Below, one piece after another: positions 8,939 to 29,875 of a stretch of 32,000 nt of DNA. The DNA is from Candidatus Saccharimonadota bacterium (GTDB lineage: Bacteria; Patescibacteriota; Gracilibacteria; BD1-5; UBA6164). Positions within the stretch are counted from its first letter, which is position 1, and every line of letters begins with the position of its first letter. A program made the translations under genes and the position numbers. The notes beneath the pieces were generated by a model. The model ran no database searches and was not told the DNA's origin. It saw nothing but the letters and a program-made list of their open reading frames with translations. The stretch lies in contig OZ245768.1 in the NCBI GenBank assembly GCA_965227835.1, positions 510,001 to 542,000 of the forward strand, in the 5' to 3' direction.

Positions 8939-9862
8939 ATGTTATTTACAAAAGCACATATAAATTTCTTAAACTACCTAGAGGTAATTAAAAATAAATC
9001 ACAAAAAACTATTGAGCAATACGATAGGCATTTAAATAAATTTACTGGTTTCTTGGAAGATTCAAATATAGATAGTTATAAATTTGTAGTAGAAAAAATA
9101 GATTTAAATCTAGCAGACTCTTTTAGAGAGTATTTATATAAGTCCTCTGAAAAAAAAATAAATATAAAAACGGCAAATGCTTATATGATAACACTTAGAT
9201 CATTTTTAAAATACTTAGAAAAAAAATGATATAAAAGTTTATCAGCTACTTCTATAGATTTGATAAAAGCAGAACCAAGGCAGGTAGAATTTCTTACAAG
9301 AGATGAGCTAGAAAGGCTTTTTGAAACTCCAGACAAAGACAGTTTGATATGAAGTAGAGATATAGCAATAATGGAGATGATATATTCTACATGACTTAGA
9401 ATATCTGAACTAACAAGTTTGAATATTAGAGATATAGATTTAGAAAGAAAGGAATTTGCCATTAGAGGAAAATGAAGAAAAGTAAGAGTAGTTTATATGA
9501 CCTCAAAATCTCAAATACTTGTAAAACACTACCTAGAAAAAAGAAGAGATCATCTATCTCCTCTTTTTATAAGACACAATATTGATATGAATAATATAGA
9601 TGTACTAGAAGACGAAAAAGTAAGACTATCTAGATTTTTTATAACCAGTATGATAAAAAACTATTGAATAAAAGCAGGTATACTAAAAGATATTTCAGCT
9701 CATACTTTGAGACATTCTTTTGCAACAACCCTCCTTGAATCTGGAGCTGATCTAAGATCAATACAAGAAATGCTTTGACATTCAAGTATTTCAACAACTC
9801 AAGTTTATACTCATGTAACCAATAAAAAACTCAAAGAAATACACGAAAAATTTATGAGATAA
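8939..9862 (+). CDS. XerC/XerD-family tyrosine recombinase (307 aa)
   Basis: An N-terminal SAM-like core-binding region ([24 protein letters not shown]) is followed by a catalytic domain: [29 protein letters not shown] and [39 protein letters not shown]. Confidence 0.88.
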
Positions 9863-9897
9863 TTTTAAAAATTTCTCTTTAAAATAGTAAAAAATAT

Positions 9898-9933
9898 ATA
9901 TCTTATATGAATATTTGCATATAAGATATTTTT
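9898..9933 (+). terminator. rho-independent terminator after the recombinase gene
   Basis: ATATCTTATATG-N8-CATATAAGATAT is a perfect 12-bp stem followed by TTTT. Confidence 0.6.
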
Positions 9934-10009
9934 ATGATACTATAGTAAACGAATACAACAAGGTTTTAATAATAAAATATATTGTCTTATAATATATATA
10001 AAATATAAA

Positions 10010-11203
10010 ATGGTTAATAAAATATCAGAAAATCAACAATTAGATAGAATAACAAAACTTATCATAGACATTGAAAATAAAGAAATTAATAACTTGGAAG
10101 AAATTATTGATGTTCTTAATATTATAGATTCTTATAATCTTAAGTCAGAAAAATCTATTTTAAGCCAATTCAATCATGATACTAGAGGTTCTATTTCCCT
10201 TTTAGATGGATTTTTTAGTGCTTTATTTAACAATGATAAAAAAACTAAATCAGAATTAATTTTTAAAAAACTAAGTTGATTTAAATGAGTAAATAATGCT
10301 GAAGAAATAAAAAAACTTTTGAGTGGTTTTTTAATATATCATATAAAAAAATGTTTTTTAAATTTCTTATTGCTATTAGGTGAAAAAGAATGAATGGAAA
10401 TAAGAAAAACATCAGTTGACTTAAACCCATTTATATCAAAAATAAAAAAATACATAGATTCTAGAATTTGTATAGAACATATGTTTTATAGCGATATATG
10501 AAAAATGTCTAAATATAAAGATTCAAATTTTATAAGAATAAACAATAATATCCCAAAATGAGTACAAGTTTTATCAAACCCTAATTTACTACATGTAATA
10601 ATATATAATATAGTTAAAAATACAGTTTATCTTAAAAATATTATGAATATTAGGTTAGAGAATAATATAGAAAAGGACAGAATAAAATTAGAACAAGCTA
10701 GGTTTTTAGATAGTACAAAAGATATAGAAAGAATAGAAATAGATATAGATTTGATAGAAGAATCGGATTATCAATATATTATTATAAGAGATAATTTAAA
10801 TGGATGATTAGATTTAAACTGATTAAAAGATAATTTGAAACTTTTAATAAAAAAAGATCCTAATTTAAATTTTGTAGATGAAATTGATATAGAAGATCAA
10901 GAAAAAAAAGATTTGAGAAGTTGGGGAAAATGAAATTATGCTCTTTTTTCTAATACATTAAAAATACTTCCTAAACTAGTTTTTCTTGATAGAATGACTA
11001 CAAGAACTTCTTGAAGTTGAATATGACTTTATAGTGCAAAAACATTATCTGAGAAATTAAATACAAAATTAATGGTATTTGAACAAGCTCAATGATGAGT
11101 AGCCTTTTGTATTTGAATTCCTAGAAAAATTAATAGTGATATTTTAAATACTCAAGAAATGGAAGATAGGATTACGGAAATTCTTCATAAAAAAGTAGTT
11201 TAA
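10010..11203 (+). CDS. soluble histidine-kinase-like protein (HisKA-like H box plus HATPase_c), 397 aa
   Basis: H-box-like FNHDTRGSISLLDGFFSAL. N-box-like NIVKNTVYLKN. G1-like IIIRDNLNGGLD. G2-like RTSGSGIGLYSAKTLSEKLNTKLMVFEQAQGGVAFCIGIP. No TM segment, and no response regulator in the window. Confidence 0.6.
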
Positions 11204-27418: not shown

Positions 27419-27617
27419 CTGTTATCTGTGAATATGGTGGAACAAGTGTTACAAACCTCGAACTCCAGAATTTTCAAATTTAATTCAGTATATGCTTAAC
27501 AATCAGAAAAAGCTAATAAAGTTATACAAGGACTTAAAATTAATTTCTTTGAAAAAATGATAGAGTTGTCAAGTAACATTTTCAACCAACAAATCCATAA
27601 TATCAAAAAATATAAAT

Positions 27618-27643
27618 AAATCCACTGAAAAATCAGTGGATTT
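27618..27643 (-). terminator. rho-independent terminator after the lipoprotein gene
   Basis: AAATCCACTGA-AAAA-TCAGTGGATTT is an 11-bp stem starting 5 nt after the stop. On the minus strand it is followed by ATTTATATTTTTT. Confidence 0.75.
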
Positions 27644-27647
27644 ATAA

Positions 27648-28016
27648 TTATTCGTGTTTTCCATGTTCATCAGATCCATGATCATCGATATCTTCTCATT
27701 CATGCATTGTTTCCATATGCATATCTACATCGGACATTTCAGTATCATTCATTTCCATATCATCTTCTATCATATGAGAGTCATCTGATATATCCATCAT
27801 ATCATGACTACTATCTCCATCTGTAGAAGTATGTTTCATATGTTCTTCTATAGTCATATTCATTCTAGCCGCCGCATCTTTCATTTCTTTATATTCAGCT
27901 GTACTCATATTATATTTTTCAGCTTGTTCAGCTTCAGTTAAAGGAGCTTCTGAACCACAAGATGCTAATCATAAAGTTGCTACTAATAGTAGACTTACTA
28001 ATAAAAATTTTTTCAT
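27648..28016 (-). CDS. Met/His/Asp-rich lipoprotein, candidate metal (Cu/Ag)-binding protein (122 aa)
   Basis: Signal peptide plus lipobox MKKFLLVSLLLVATLGLASC. The mature part is rich in M, H and D: HDMMDISDDSHMIEDDMEMNDTEMSDVDMHMETMHEGEDIDDHGSDEHGKHE. It is the last gene of the cusA-containing operon. Confidence 0.7.
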
Positions 28017-28128: not shown

Positions 28129-29625
28129 TTATAAAAATTTTTCAAAATAAACATTTTCTATTTGTTTTTGTTGTAATGCTTCACTTGTTTGCTCAACTAG
28201 TTTTGGATTTCCACAAATATATACTTCATCATTTTTTCATATATTTATTTTCTCAACATCTACTCTTCCATATTTATGTCCCTTTATTTCTTCTCAAGAT
28301 AAATAAGTAAATACTTGTAAATTTGGGATATTTTTTAATACATCTAAATAAAATAAATCTTTCTCATATCGTACTCAAAAATGAAGTTCTTTTTTTGTTT
28401 TCCAAGTATTAATTATCATATTATATATTGGAGATAATCATGTTCCAGTAGCTATAAAAATCTTCTTTCTACTTGTATTTTTAAGAATAAAGTCTCAGTA
28501 TGGTCACAAAACTTTTATTTGATCTCATAGTTTTGATTTTCTAATTTCAGCTGATCAACTTCCCTCTTCAGTTAATTTTATAAGAAAAGTAAGTGTATTA
28601 TCTATATATTTAGCAACCGAATAACTTCTTATGATTTTATTTTTTCACTTTCTGAAAATAAAATTACAAAATTGTCATGATTTTATTTCTAAATCTCTTT
28701 TACATAAAAATACAAGTTCTACTACATCATCTGTTAAATATTTCTTTGATTCCAAAATAAATTCTAGTTCATGATTTTCTTTTATCTCTGGATTATAATG
28801 TCAGTCCAATGGAATAAAATCCTTTTTACTCACTCAACAAACAGGACATCTCCAATTATTTGGAATATCTTCAAATTTTGTTCATGGAGCTAATCAACCA
28901 TCTTCATCTCATAACTCTTCATCATAGATATATCAACATGGGAGACATAAGAATTTTCTATATTCTCATTTTCCTAATCACTTACCTCATTTTCTTTCAT
29001 ATCTTTCATCAAACCAAGTATATGATCTCAGTAATATAAGAATAACTCATGGATATAAATAAATTCCTTTCCATCATCATATAAAATAAATATGAAGTAA
29101 TACAATTATAAACAATGGATATACTCCTTTTTGAAGATATTTCCAAAATTTTGCTCACATGATTCTTTGAGAAAGATCATTTGAGGTAAATAATAAAGTT
29201 AACATTACTATAAAACCAATAATTCATATCCAAAAAGCATAAAAGTTCATTCAAAATATACTTTCTCACCAAGCATTAAAAATACTATTTATAAGAAAAT
29301 CTCAATATCACATTTTTTCTATATAATATTTTTCCCATAAATTACTTACTCTTTCTTCAAAATGTAATACATGCATCAAAGAGAAAGCTCCTGCAAGTAT
29401 TCAAATAGGTCTTCTATAGTTTATTAACTTATTAGAATATTTTTTTAGTTTTTTAATTTTCAAAAGTAATTTAGAAAATGGTGTTACTAGTAATACAAAA
29501 ATAAGATAATAATAACTGAGGAATCAAAATATTTGCACATCATTTGATAATATTTGCTTTGCTAGAAAATATAGTGGTATTACTGGTATTAAAGATATCA
29601 TTAGCCTAAAAATAGTTTTTTTCAT
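28129..29625 (-). CDS. fusion protein: ferric-reductase/YedZ-like TM domain + rubredoxin + FNR-like FAD/NAD(P)H reductase (498 aa)
   Basis: The N-terminal polytopic part has His in TM helices (AGAFSLMHVLHF, FIIVLLHIYF). The middle is a textbook rubredoxin: [46 protein letters not shown]. The C-terminal part has RSYSVA (RxYS FAD motif), LGPYGDF and IFIATGTGLSPI (NAD(P)H motif). Confidence 0.8.
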
Positions 29626-29635
29626 TAAATGTAAG

Positions 29636-29875
29636 TTAATTTAATAAATCCTTTTTCTTTTCATCAAATTCATCTTTATCAATTTCTCAATTTGCATACC
29701 TTTTCTTTAAAATTTCTAGTGCTGATTCATTTTTCCTTTCATTTTTCTGAGAATTTTTATTTATAAAATAGATCACTAAAAAAATAATTACTACATAAAA
29801 TAAAATTTGCCATATTCAGAAAAATCCAAAACCCCACATATGTCAAAATCAGTAATTTCAATCATAATTATACAT
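29636..29875 (-). CDS. SHOCT-domain small membrane protein (79 aa)
   Basis: A Gly-rich N-terminus and one TM segment (IWQILFYVVIIFLVIYF), then a SHOCT-like tail LEILKKRYANGEIDKDEFDEKKKDLL. An alternative ATG is at 29865. Confidence 0.65.

What the first reader, a model, noticed from the sequence alone, without database searches (positions are those of the whole stretch)
28129..29625. Unusual three-module redox fusion (ferric-reductase-like TM domain + rubredoxin + FNR-like reductase) embedded in a copper-efflux operon
One continuous 498-aa frame under table 25 combines three modules.
- A polytopic N-terminal domain with His residues in TM helices, like YedZ/MsrQ and ferric-reductase (FRD) heme-b domains.
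- A complete rubredoxin with both CxxCG knuckles (CLPCG and CPVCG; the first-knuckle Gly is TGA-encoded).
- An FNR-type module with RxYS, GPYG and GTGxxP motifs.
This is effectively a NOX/FRE-like electron conduit: cytosolic NAD(P)H to FAD, to Fe-Cys4, to membrane heme, to an external acceptor. The rubredoxin is inserted between membrane and dehydrogenase parts. Its position between the SHOCT gene (10-nt gap) and the Met/His lipoprotein, downstream of cusA, suggests an extracytoplasmic metal reductase (Cu(II) to Cu(I), or Fe(III)) feeding the efflux or buffering system. A protein-repair (MsrQ-like) role is the alternative. FRD-FNR fusions are known. I am not aware of, and cannot verify here, a described rubredoxin-containing version in CPR bacteria.
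Basis: partly seen in the sequence, partly recalled or inferred. Interest (0 to 1): 0.65.

Follow-up and report, generated by a model that had tools for sequence, protein, structure and literature searches.

The report
Rubredoxin-bridged membrane reductase in copper operon
A real, conserved single-protein electron wire (NAD(P)H-oxidising module, rubredoxin, MsrQ/STEAP-type haem membrane domain) sits inside the copper-efflux operon of a Gracilibacteria-type bacterium; the fusion itself was already noted in related bacteria in 2021, but its function and its copper link are untested.

Summary
Window 28129-29625 (minus strand) is one 498-aa gene under code 25, with 30 TGA = Gly codons. Four Pfam domains score above their curated cut-offs: Ferric_reduct, Rubredoxin, FAD_binding_6 and NAD_binding_1. 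It is not a frameshift: 238 homologues were found, and most listed ones are full length.

1. The architecture is already published (Vamp_33_45, Moreira 2021, PMC8080830).
2. The membrane domain is YedZ/MsrQ/STEAP-type, not NOX/FRE-type. It has one invariant His pair (H85/H178, outer haem). R71 and Q165 occupy the NOX inner-haem positions, and the MsrQ flavin-pocket residues are kept.
3. The copper context holds only in the window's subclade. In 8 of 8 loci at 50% identity or more, the gene lies between a CusA-type pump and a Met/His-rich lipoprotein. Of the 43 more distant loci, none has a CusA-type pump nearby; 27 have ApbE within 3 kb and 7 have an adjacent FMN-binding protein.

Best reading: an NAD(P)H-driven exporter of electrons that supports the Cus system, most likely as a Cu(II) reductase. 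This is inferred, not shown.

Verdict: new variant of a known kind, of moderate interest.

The parts
28129..29625 (-). Fusion gene, 498 aa under code 25: MsrQ/STEAP-type membrane domain + rubredoxin + FNR-like reductase
28981..29625 (-). Membrane domain (aa 1-215): six TM helices, N-in/C-in. Haem ligands are H85 (codon 29371-29373) and H178 (codon 29092-29094). Flavin-pocket residues are R71, R72, L144, S148, W161 and Q165.
   Evidence: Pfam PF01794; secondary structure of the AF2 model; alignment to E. coli MsrQ; charge distribution
28816..28956 (-). Rubredoxin module (aa 224-270): Cys227, Cys230, Cys260 and Cys263 are invariant; both knuckle Gly are TGA-coded
   Evidence: PF00301 73 bits; NF045768; PDB rubredoxins at about 1e-18; invariant columns; codons
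28183..28758 (-). FNR-like dehydrogenase (aa 290-481): FAD_binding_6 + NAD_binding_1, with RSYS, GPYG, GTGLSP and a near-invariant C-terminal F497
   Evidence: (MmoC/BenC/Fre-type)
29636..29875 (-). 79-aa membrane-anchored SHOCT-domain protein. An accessory insert, found only in the window and in L081.
   Evidence: PF09851 44 bits
29899..31998 (-). CusA-type heavy-metal RND pump (C-terminal 699 codons; the gene runs off the window)
   Evidence: TIGR00914 623 bits. Best PDB match is E. coli CusA, 482 bits against 337 for ZneA. The Met triad M573/M623/M672 aligns with Met. TM4 reads AIGTMVDAAIVVTEN.
27648..28016 (-). 122-aa lipoprotein (LASC lipobox): 12% Met, 7% His, acidic. Member of an unannotated Gracilibacteria family that closes CusBA-type operons.
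27616..27645 (-). Intrinsic-terminator-like hairpin (13-bp stem followed by a T-run), 3 nt after the lipoprotein stop codon: end of the operon
   Evidence: 4 terminator-like sites found; 0.4 expected from shuffles

Best explanation
What it is. The gene encodes a one-polypeptide conduit that carries electrons from inside the cell to the outer face of the membrane.

Proposed path:
1. The cytoplasmic FNR-like module takes a hydride from NAD(P)H onto FAD.
2. The rubredoxin Fe(Cys)4 centre, tethered by two flexible linkers, passes single electrons to the membrane domain.
3. The membrane domain is of the YedZ/MsrQ/STEAP type. It has a cytoplasm-facing flavin pocket (R71, R72, L144, S148, W161, Q165) in place of the NOX inner haem, and one b-haem in the outer leaflet bound by H85 and H178.
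4. The haem reduces an acceptor outside the membrane.

In effect it is MsrQ fused to its own Fre-like reductase, with a rubredoxin as the bridge.

Role in this subclade. The gene has been inserted into the Cu(I)-specific CusBA operon, between the pump and its Met/His-rich lipoprotein. I therefore propose that it supplies reducing power to the copper-efflux machinery. The most likely mechanism is reduction of Cu(II) to Cu(I) at the outer face. The Met-based lipoprotein/CusB/CusA relay, which handles only Cu(I), could then bind and expel the copper. STEAP and yeast Fre1/Fre7 have this cupric-reductase chemistry.

Status of each step:
- Shown: domain content, ligand conservation, topology and synteny.
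- Inferred: cofactor occupancy, the order of electron transfer, and the acceptor.
For: - Domains all score above their cut-offs. The FNR module resembles MmoC, BenC and Fre.
- Invariant in 80 sequences: H85, H178, the four rubredoxin Cys, R333 and S336.
- The alignment to E. coli MsrQ maps H91 to H85 and H164 to H178. It also maps R77, R78, L131, S135, W147 and H151 to R71, R72, L144, S148, W161 and Q165. Conservation is 43-44 of 44 at four of these pocket positions; position 72 is K or R in 40 of 44, and position 165 is Gln in 32 and His in 12.
- These residues are the experimentally studied haem and FMN sites of MsrQ (PMC12525009).
- Arg in TM3 plus Gln in TM5 is the published YedZ/STEAP signature, and such domains bind only the surface-proximal haem (PMC3591440).
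- Positive-inside topology puts both termini in the cytoplasm.
- The AF2 model has mean pLDDT 87 and six long helices; the only segments below pLDDT 50 are 210-220 and 276-282, the two linkers that flank the rubredoxin. The best full-length structural match is SpNOX.
- Copper link: 8 of 8 clade-A loci share MFP, CusA-type pump, fusion gene and lipoprotein. Copper genes are inserted in several: multicopper oxidase, HMA P-type ATPase, HMA-MauE.
- The CusA Met triad is conserved.
- Gaps of 23, 10 and 112 nt are followed by a terminator.
- FRD-family enzymes are established cupric reductases (STEAP, Fre1/Fre7; PMC3591440).
Against: - No biochemical or expression data exist for any member of the family.
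- The outer face of clade-A proteins has no conserved His/Cys/Met cluster that would mark a copper site. There is only one invariant Met (M126), in a clade-specific loop insertion.
- The lipoprotein is not a dedicated partner. It follows the pump directly in operons that lack the fusion gene.
- Making Cu(I) at the cell surface yields the more toxic ion. It would also oppose the multicopper oxidase encoded in some of the same islands.
- Most of the family is associated with ApbE and FMN_bind proteins, not with copper.
- The inter-domain geometry is uncertain (pTM 0.51). No coordinates were available, so the Fe-flavin-haem distances could not be measured.
Confidence: 0.4

Rival explanations
1. 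MsrPQ-like maintenance role. The conduit supplies electrons to keep the methionine-based copper relay (lipoprotein, CusB, CusA) reduced and functional under oxidising, copper-rich conditions. This would happen through a catalytic partner that has not been identified.
For: - The membrane domain is MsrQ-type residue by residue.
- In E. coli, MsrPQ is induced by copper through CusSR and repairs Met-oxidised CusF, which preserves CusCFBA activity (PMC9302797).
- Clade-A islands carry envelope redox genes next to the fusion gene: MauE/DoxX-like (within 1-5 nt in 4 loci), DUF302, rhodanese, Thioredoxin_4/DsbA, VKOR and AhpC.
- The lipoprotein is 12-15% Met.
Against: - No MsrP (molybdoenzyme), MsrA or MsrB appears in any of the sampled loci.
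- From general knowledge, these reduced genomes are not expected to make molybdenum cofactor.
- A haem cannot reduce methionine sulfoxide without a catalytic subunit.
- The NCBIfam MsrQ model scores 39 bits against a cut-off of 130.
Confidence: 0.2
2. Flavinylation-linked electron export, as in the rest of the family. The acceptor is an ApbE-flavinylated extracytoplasmic FMN-binding protein encoded elsewhere in the genome, and the position in the Cus operon is only co-regulation or hitch-hiking.
For: - 27 of the 43 more distant loci have ApbE within 3 kb.
- 7 loci have a secreted protein with one to four FMN_bind domains directly upstream of the gene.
- This matches the 'MsrQ-like' flavinylation systems of Meheust et al. 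2021 (PMC8238504).
- In L089 an ApbE cluster lies right beside a Cus operon.
Against: - None of the 8 clade-A loci has ApbE or FMN_bind within 10 kb.
- There is no flavinylation motif in any ORF of the 32-kb window.
- The operon position between pump and lipoprotein is conserved across proteins only about 50% identical to the window's, which is unlikely for a passenger gene.
Confidence: 0.15
3. General redox-balance or energy role, as proposed for Vamp_33_45. The protein would regenerate NAD(P)+, scavenge oxygen or reactive oxygen species, or contribute to a proton-motive force. A NOX-like variant would have it producing superoxide.
For: - Moreira et al. 2021 proposed these roles for the same architecture.
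- These organisms lack a standard respiratory chain (PMC8080830).
- SpNOX is the best full-length structural match.
Against: - A single-haem conduit that moves only electrons outward has no evident proton-pumping device.
- The NOX signature (four His) is absent.
- These roles do not explain either of the two conserved gene contexts.
Confidence: 0.15
4. Artefact: separate genes joined by a sequencing or assembly frameshift, or by the wrong genetic code.
For: Under table 11 the frame is broken by 30 TGA codons.
Against: - TGA falls on invariant Gly positions.
- The same uninterrupted architecture is seen in independent assemblies from several public sources.
Confidence: 0.01

Closest known systems
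Vamp_33_45 of Vampirococcus lugosii (Moreira et al. 2021, Nat Commun 12:2454, PMC8080830)
   Same: The same tripartite architecture: an N-terminal polytopic flavocytochrome-like domain, a central rubredoxin and a C-terminal NAD-binding ferredoxin-reductase-like domain. It is reported as conserved in Absconditabacteria/SR1. SR1 and Absconditabacteria loci (L011, L035, L038, L043) fall in the family found here. L011 and L035 carry an N-terminal extension of about 80 aa, consistent with the published count of 8 TM helices.
   Different: - The published description is one paragraph of bioinformatics. It proposes PMF generation or ROS detoxification.
- In the passages I searched (terms rubredoxin, oxidoreductase, electron transport) it mentions neither a copper context nor ApbE, and it does not assign the domain to the YedZ/STEAP type or give a haem count.
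- The window protein has 6 TM helices and belongs to a different subclade (31-41% identity to the SR1-type members).
- The Vamp_33_45 sequence itself was not available for a direct comparison.
E. coli MsrQ (YedZ) with its soluble reductase Fre
   Same: - The membrane domain shares both haem ligands and the FMN-pocket residues.
- The dehydrogenase module is of the same FNR superfamily as Fre (NF005963 hit).
- E. coli MsrPQ is functionally tied to the Cus system (PMC9302797).
   Different: - Here the reductase is fused to the membrane domain and a rubredoxin is interposed.
- No MsrP partner is present.
- H151 is Gln, as in STEAP.
- The NCBIfam MsrQ score is far below its cut-off (39 against 130).
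STEAP2-4 metalloreductases (eukaryotic)
   Same: A YedZ-type domain with one outer haem, an inner flavin site with Arg in TM3 and Gln in TM5, fused to a cytoplasmic NADPH-binding module. Ferric and cupric reductase activity is established (PMC3591440, PMC12525009).
   Different: - The STEAP dehydrogenase is an N-terminal F420-type domain (PF03807), not a C-terminal FNR.
- STEAP has no rubredoxin.
- STEAP serves metal uptake, not efflux.
'MsrQ-like' flavinylation-associated systems (Meheust et al. 2021, eLife e66878)
   Same: A PF01794 membrane protein, often with a C-terminal PF00175 NAD-binding domain, clustered with apbE and an FMN_bind gene. The distant members of this family fit that definition.
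   Different: - The paper does not mention rubredoxin and reports CPR as strikingly under-represented.
- It predicts two haem sites.
- The window's subclade has neither ApbE nor FMN_bind nearby.
Bacterial NOX (SpNOX) and eukaryotic NOX/FRE
   Same: A membrane FRD domain followed by a C-terminal FAD/NAD(P)H dehydrogenase in one chain. SpNOX is the best full-length Foldseek match (E 3.6e-17).
   Different: - NOX/FRE have four His and two haems, use FAD_binding_8/NAD_binding_6 modules, and have no Fe-S relay.
- Here there are two His, Arg and Gln at the inner positions, and FAD_binding_6/NAD_binding_1 modules.
- The structural overlay is poor (TM-score 0.39-0.48, rmsd 14 A).

Membership tests
Ferric-reductase-domain (FRD) superfamily, PF01794 | Six-helix membrane domain matching the family profile, with haem-ligand His in TM3 and TM5 | tested here: met
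   34.1 bits against a cut-off of 28; six helices in the AF2 model; H85 and H178 invariant
NOX/FRE group of the FRD superfamily | Four canonical His (two in TM3, two in TM5) binding two haems | tested here: not met
   Only two His columns exceed 90% conservation. The inner positions are R71 (43 of 44) and Q165 (Q in 32, H in 12).
NOX/FRE group of the FRD superfamily | Dehydrogenase of the FAD_binding_8 / NAD_binding_6 type | tested here: not met
   NAD_binding_6 scores only E 0.047, 14 bits against a cut-off of 22. There is no FAD_binding_8 hit. FAD_binding_6 and NAD_binding_1 pass.
YedZ/MsrQ/STEAP group of the FRD superfamily | First TM3 haem His replaced by a conserved Arg; inner TM5 His replaced by Gln or retained as the flavin-stacking His; only the outer haem pair kept (Zhang 2013, PMC3591440) | tested here: met
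   Positions R71, Q165, H85 and H178, plus pocket residues L144, S148 and W161
MsrQ proper (MsrPQ system) | Scores above the NCBIfam equivalog cut-off, and is partnered with the molybdoenzyme MsrP | tested here: not met
   NF003831 scores 39 bits against a cut-off of 130. No Oxidored_molyb/MsrP gene is present in the window or in any sampled locus.
MsrQ proper (MsrPQ system) | Bound b-haem and FMN cofactors | not testable with these tools
   Ligand and pocket residues are conserved. Occupancy requires spectroscopy.
'MsrQ-like' flavinylation-associated system (Meheust 2021) | PF01794 gene within a cluster that contains apbE and/or an FMN_bind gene | tested here: not met
   Window and clade A: 0 of 8 loci within 10 kb. 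The wider family meets it: 27 of 43 loci have ApbE within 3 kb and 7 have an adjacent FMN_bind protein.
Rubredoxin, PF00301 | Two CxxCG knuckles providing four Cys ligands, with the conserved aromatic core | tested here: met
   73 bits against a cut-off of 23. C227, C230, C260 and C263 are invariant; Y234, W258 and F270 are conserved.
FNR-like two-domain flavoenzyme (BenC/MmoC/Fre type) | RxYS flavin motif, GxGxxP nucleotide motif, C-terminal aromatic residue | tested here: met
   RSYS 333-336, GTGLSP 394-399, F497 near-invariant. Structural matches at TMt 0.76-0.84.
Vamp_33_45-type tripartite protein (Moreira 2021) | Polytopic flavocytochrome-like N-terminus + rubredoxin + NAD-binding ferredoxin-reductase-like C-terminus in code-25 CPR bacteria | tested here: met
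   Architecture. SR1 and Absconditabacteria loci are in the same family.
CusA (Cu(I)/Ag(I) HME-RND pump), the neighbouring gene | Methionine triad M573/M623/M672, and closer to CusA than to divalent-cation pumps | tested here: met
   All three residues align with Met. 482 bits to CusA against 337 to ZneA.
CusF/known periplasmic copper chaperones, the downstream lipoprotein | Match to a described chaperone family | tested here: not met
   No Pfam family at E up to 10, except a lipobox site at E 9. No NCBIfam hit above cut-off. The resemblance is in composition and position only.

The most novel reading that the evidence does not exclude
A previously unrecognised copper-defence module in wall-less-genome CPR bacteria. 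An NAD(P)H-powered MsrQ/STEAP-type reductase with a built-in rubredoxin relay has switched acceptors. In its relatives the acceptor is an ApbE-flavinylated protein. Here the enzyme would act on copper, or on the methionine relay, of a CusBA pump. That would make it the first prokaryotic STEAP-like cupric reductase dedicated to efflux. It would also be the first 'long-form' FRD enzyme built on a single-haem YedZ-type domain.
Probability: 0.3. Interest if true: 0.65.

Novelty: new variant of a known kind. Interest (0 to 1): 0.45.

Why it matters
Gracilibacteria and Absconditabacteria lack a respiratory chain. This protein is one of their very few membrane redox enzymes, and what it does is an open question raised in the literature in 2021.

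Three results here turn that loose idea into specific, testable hypotheses:
- The membrane domain is of the single-haem MsrQ/STEAP type.
- Most family members pair with the ApbE flavinylation machinery.
- One subclade has been wired into the Cu(I) efflux operon.

If the copper link is real, it would show how a minimal cell couples cytoplasmic NAD(P)H to extracytoplasmic metal handling. It would also extend the E. coli MsrPQ-Cus connection to a very different lineage.

Tried and rejected
- Frameshift or code artefact: rejected.
- NOX-type two-haem conduit: rejected on the ligand pattern.
- Lipoprotein as a dedicated partner of the fusion protein: rejected. The lipoprotein closes Cus operons that lack the fusion gene.
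- Clade-specific metal site on the outer face: none convincing, only M126.
- Sequence search of the membrane domain alone against the PDB: nothing found.
- Looking up the window's own contig to see beyond the window end: not on record.
The TGA=Trp database version, P0001, was modelled instead. Thirty Gly positions are therefore Trp in the model, and local geometry there is unreliable.
- Model coordinates are not exposed, so distances between cofactor sites could not be measured.
- tRNA and Rfam scans of the window: empty.
- Promoter scan: not above the shuffled background, so uninformative.
Full report
**1. The observation**

The feature lies on the minus strand of window 28129-29625. Read with table 11, the frame has 30 internal TGA codons. 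Treating TGA as sense raises the longest ORF in the window from 297 to 865 aa and gives one 498-aa product here.

The code is 25 (TGA = Gly) rather than 4 (TGA = Trp). TGA falls exactly on glycines that are conserved in known motifs:
- both rubredoxin knuckles, CLPC-G231 and CPVC-G264
- both Gly of GPYG
- the second Gly of GTG

Conserved tryptophans (W161, W258) are TGG. Thirty of the gene's 42 Gly codons are TGA.

Pfam finds four domains, in order, all above their gathering scores:

| Domain | Residues | Bits | Cut-off |
|---|---|---|---|
| Ferric_reduct | 33-175 | 34.1 | 28 |
| Rubredoxin | 224-270 | 73.1 | 23 |
| FAD_binding_6 | 290-379 | 37.8 | 21.1 |
| NAD_binding_1 | 390-481 | 34.5 | 22 |

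NCBIfam places the C-terminal half with the MmoC, BenC and Fre type of FNR-like reductases, and gives a sub-threshold MsrQ hit for the membrane part.

The fusion is not an assembly artefact. 238 homologues were found, and most of those listed are full length (about 460-580 aa) with the same domain order. Many database entries were translated with TGA = Trp, which explains their patchy precomputed Pfam calls.

**2. It has been described before**

Moreira et al. 2021 (PMC8080830) report Vamp_33_45 of Vampirococcus lugosii as having 'an atypical tripartite domain structure':
- an N-terminal domain with 8 TM helices, similar to flavocytochromes
- a central rubredoxin-like domain
[quoted passage not shown] They speculate about a new PMF-generating system or a role in ROS and redox balance.

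In the genome collection, every full-length relative comes from records labelled Gracilibacteria, SR1/Absconditabacteria, Peribacteria or unclassified Patescibacteria. All have in-frame TGA codons, 2-37 per gene. Two of the SR1 members (L011, L035) carry an N-terminal extension of about 80 aa with two further hydrophobic segments, which matches the published 8 TM helices.

The family is rare. Only 35 representative clusters reach E ≤ 1e-30 among 1.84 billion proteins.

**3. What kind of membrane domain it is**

In an 80-sequence alignment, the membrane domain has exactly two invariant histidines: H85 in TM3 and H178 in TM5. H88, which the window protein also has, is not conserved.

I aligned the domain to E. 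coli MsrQ, fetched as L088. The mapping is below.

| MsrQ residue | Window residue | Family conservation | Role in MsrQ |
|---|---|---|---|
| H91 | H85 | H in 43 of 44 | haem ligand |
| H164 | H178 | H in 42 of 44 | haem ligand |
| R77 | R71 | R in 43 of 44 | FMN pocket |
| R78 | R72 | K or R in 40 of 44 | FMN pocket |
| L131 | L144 | L in 43 of 44 | FMN pocket |
| S135 | S148 | S in 44 of 44 | FMN pocket |
| W147 | W161 | W in 44 of 44 | FMN pocket |
| H151 | Q165 | Q in 32, H in 12 | FMN pocket |

According to the 2025 MsrQ study (PMC12525009):
- H91 and H164 bind the single haem on the periplasmic side.
- The other six residues form the cytoplasm-side FMN pocket.
- In NOX and DUOX, R77 is replaced by the His that binds the inner haem.
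- In STEAP, H151 is Gln.

Zhang et al. 2013 (PMC3591440) use the same replacements, Arg in TM3 and Gln in TM5, as the signature of the YedZ/STEAP group. [quoted passage not shown]

The window protein is therefore a long form built on a YedZ/STEAP-type domain. It is not a NOX/FRE-type two-haem conduit.

The charge distribution fits an N-in, C-in topology. K+R counts are 2, 8, 4 and 5 in the predicted inside segments, against 0, 2 and 1 outside. This places the rubredoxin and FNR modules in the cytoplasm and H85/H178 in the outer half of the membrane.

The AF2 model, built on the TGA = Trp version P0001, is confident within each domain (mean pLDDT 87). The only segments below pLDDT 50 are 210-220 and 276-282, the two linkers that flank the rubredoxin. 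Inter-domain confidence is low (pTM 0.51). The best full-length structural match is the S. pneumoniae NADPH oxidase, but the overlay is poor (TM-score 0.39-0.48, rmsd 14 A). The FNR module matches many FNR-family structures well.

**4. Gene context: two regimes**

*The window operon.* The gene order in the window is:
1. cusA-type RND pump
2. SHOCT protein (23-nt gap from the pump)
3. fusion gene (10-nt gap)
4. lipoprotein (112-nt gap)
5. a hairpin with a 13-bp stem and a T-run, 3 nt after the lipoprotein stop codon

*The pump.* It is truly CusA-type:
- TIGR00914 scores 623 bits on the truncated protein.
- E. coli CusA is the best solved match, at 482 bits against 337 for ZneA.
- All three residues of the Cu(I)-binding Met triad (M573, M623, M672) align with Met.

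*Clade A.* I sampled relatives from the GTDB genome scan and from encoding contigs. Every locus whose fusion protein is at least 50% identical to the window's has the same core: a membrane-fusion protein, a pump of 1045-1055 aa, the fusion gene, and the lipoprotein 6-173 nt downstream. This holds for 8 of 8 loci: the window, L001, L081, L082, L083, L085, L086 and L087.

Variable inserts sit in or next to this core. They include SHOCT, DUF1573, DUF302, MauE (with an HMA domain in L086), a multicopper oxidase and an HMA-type P-type ATPase. None of the 8 loci has ApbE or FMN_bind within 10 kb.

*The rest of the family.* Among the other 43 loci (31-41% identity):
- None has a CusA-type pump or this lipoprotein nearby.
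- 27 have ApbE (PF02424) within 3 kb.
- 7 have a secreted protein with one to four FMN_bind domains and the flavinylation motif directly upstream of the fusion gene.
- A two-component system also recurs: a histidine kinase within 6 kb in 21 of the 44 genome-collection loci that carry a full-length fusion ORF, and a response regulator in 12.

This is the layout of the 'MsrQ-like' flavinylation-associated systems of Meheust et al. 2021. That paper does not mention rubredoxin and found CPR strikingly under-represented.

**5. The lipoprotein**

The downstream protein belongs to a conserved family that no source has annotated. Its features:
- an LASC lipobox
- 12-15% Met and about 6% His, and it is acidic
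- invariant Met and His positions
- up to four H-x-M-x-D-G-x-x-M repeats (the window copy has none)
- no Pfam match at E up to 10, apart from a lipobox site at E 9
- 252 clusters in the protein database

It is not specific to the fusion gene. In L090 and in a JGI contig it follows the pump directly, with no reductase present. It is therefore a core accessory of the Gracilibacteria CusBA-type operon, in a CusF-like position. In clade A the reductase gene lies between the pump and this lipoprotein.

**6. Mechanism**

*Shown:* the domain set, the conserved ligand and pocket residues, the topology, and the operon structure and its conservation.

*Inferred:*
- The electron path: NAD(P)H to FAD, to the rubredoxin iron, to the inner flavin site if it is occupied, to the outer haem, to an external acceptor.
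- The rubredoxin's role: it bridges a two-electron flavin dehydrogenase and a membrane domain that lacks the NOX inner haem.

In effect this is MsrQ fused to a Fre-like reductase through a rubredoxin.

For the window's subclade, the conserved position inside the Cu(I)-pump operon argues for a copper-linked role. I favour Cu(II) to Cu(I) reduction at the outer face. This chemistry is established for STEAP and for yeast Fre1 and Fre7 (PMC3591440). It would give the Met-based relay its only transportable form of copper.

The main rival is an MsrPQ-like role that keeps the Met-rich copper relay functional. It has a real precedent: in E. coli, MsrPQ is copper-induced through CusSR and repairs CusF (PMC9302797). 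But no catalytic Msr partner is encoded nearby.

Evidence against the favoured reading:
- There is no conserved metal-ligand cluster on the outer face of clade-A proteins.
- The product, Cu(I), is the more toxic ion.
- Some of the same islands encode a multicopper oxidase.
- There is no experimental evidence at all.

**7. Novelty and verdict**

The three-module fusion is real and conserved, but its architecture was already reported in 2021.

I found no published statement of the following points. The evidence for that is limited to term searches of the paper library and term look-ups within the papers cited here:
1. The membrane domain is YedZ/MsrQ/STEAP-type, with a preserved flavin pocket and a single haem.
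2. Most of the family is linked to ApbE and FMN_bind proteins.
3. One subclade, including this window, is embedded in CusBA operons.

I rate it a new variant of a known kind and of moderate interest. It is a good target for biochemistry, not a categorically new system.

Noticed in passing
L089 8334-9833 (minus), with ApbE at 9818-10669: In Gracilibacteria bacterium 28_42_T64 (CP042461.1), a 499-aa protein has a permuted architecture: an N-terminal 4Fe-4S ferredoxin (Fer4_13), then FAD_binding_6 and NAD_binding_1, then a C-terminal YedZ-like membrane domain. By eye, the membrane domain keeps the TSN...W..Q motif but seems to lack both haem-ligand His. The gene sits next to ApbE and is convergent with a Cus operon.
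   Followed up: partly
L090 8001-8366; L089 8001-8264; JGI contig of P0306: The Met/His lipoprotein family (252 clusters, no Pfam domain, no informative name from any source) directly follows the MFP-CusA pump even where no reductase gene is present. It is therefore a core, undescribed accessory of Gracilibacteria Cus-type operons.
   Followed up: partly
L001 4080-4502; L089 2518-2913; L090 2323-2838: The first gene of these Cus-type operons encodes a secreted protein of about 130-170 aa, rich in Met, His and Cys, with no family assignment. No outer-membrane-factor gene was seen, and the membrane-fusion proteins are unusually long (about 585-660 aa).
   Followed up: no
P0028 (527 aa, Candidatus Gracilibacteria HGA92_05010): One family member carries two rubredoxin domains in tandem between the membrane and FNR modules.
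   Followed up: no
L002 7368-9455: An ORF of 695 codons (measured stop to stop) with four FMN_bind domains, so probably multi-flavinylated, lies directly upstream of the fusion gene. Similar proteins with fewer FMN_bind domains lie upstream in L004, L005, L006, L008, L009 and L013.
   Followed up: partly
L083 6081-6797; L084 834-1550; L086 5954-6670; L087 6868-7587: A 238-239-aa MauE/DoxX-like membrane protein, fused to an HMA copper-binding domain in L086, ends 1-5 nt before the start of the fusion gene in four clade-A loci. This suggests translational coupling.
   Followed up: no
window 29636-29875 (minus): A SHOCT-domain small membrane protein lies between cusA and the fusion gene. It is found only here and in L081, so it is an accessory insert and not part of the conserved core.
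   Followed up: yes
window 1-32000: Reading TGA as sense (the stop set shared by codes 4 and 25) greatly lengthens ORFs across the whole window, whose G+C is 20-31%. No tRNA gene and no Rfam family were detected in the 32 kb.
   Followed up: yes
family alignment, column of window residue 165: Twelve family members have His instead of Gln at the position equivalent to MsrQ H151. Nine of those twelve have no ApbE within 10 kb, and none has a CusA-type pump nearby. They may form a third context type.
   Followed up: partly
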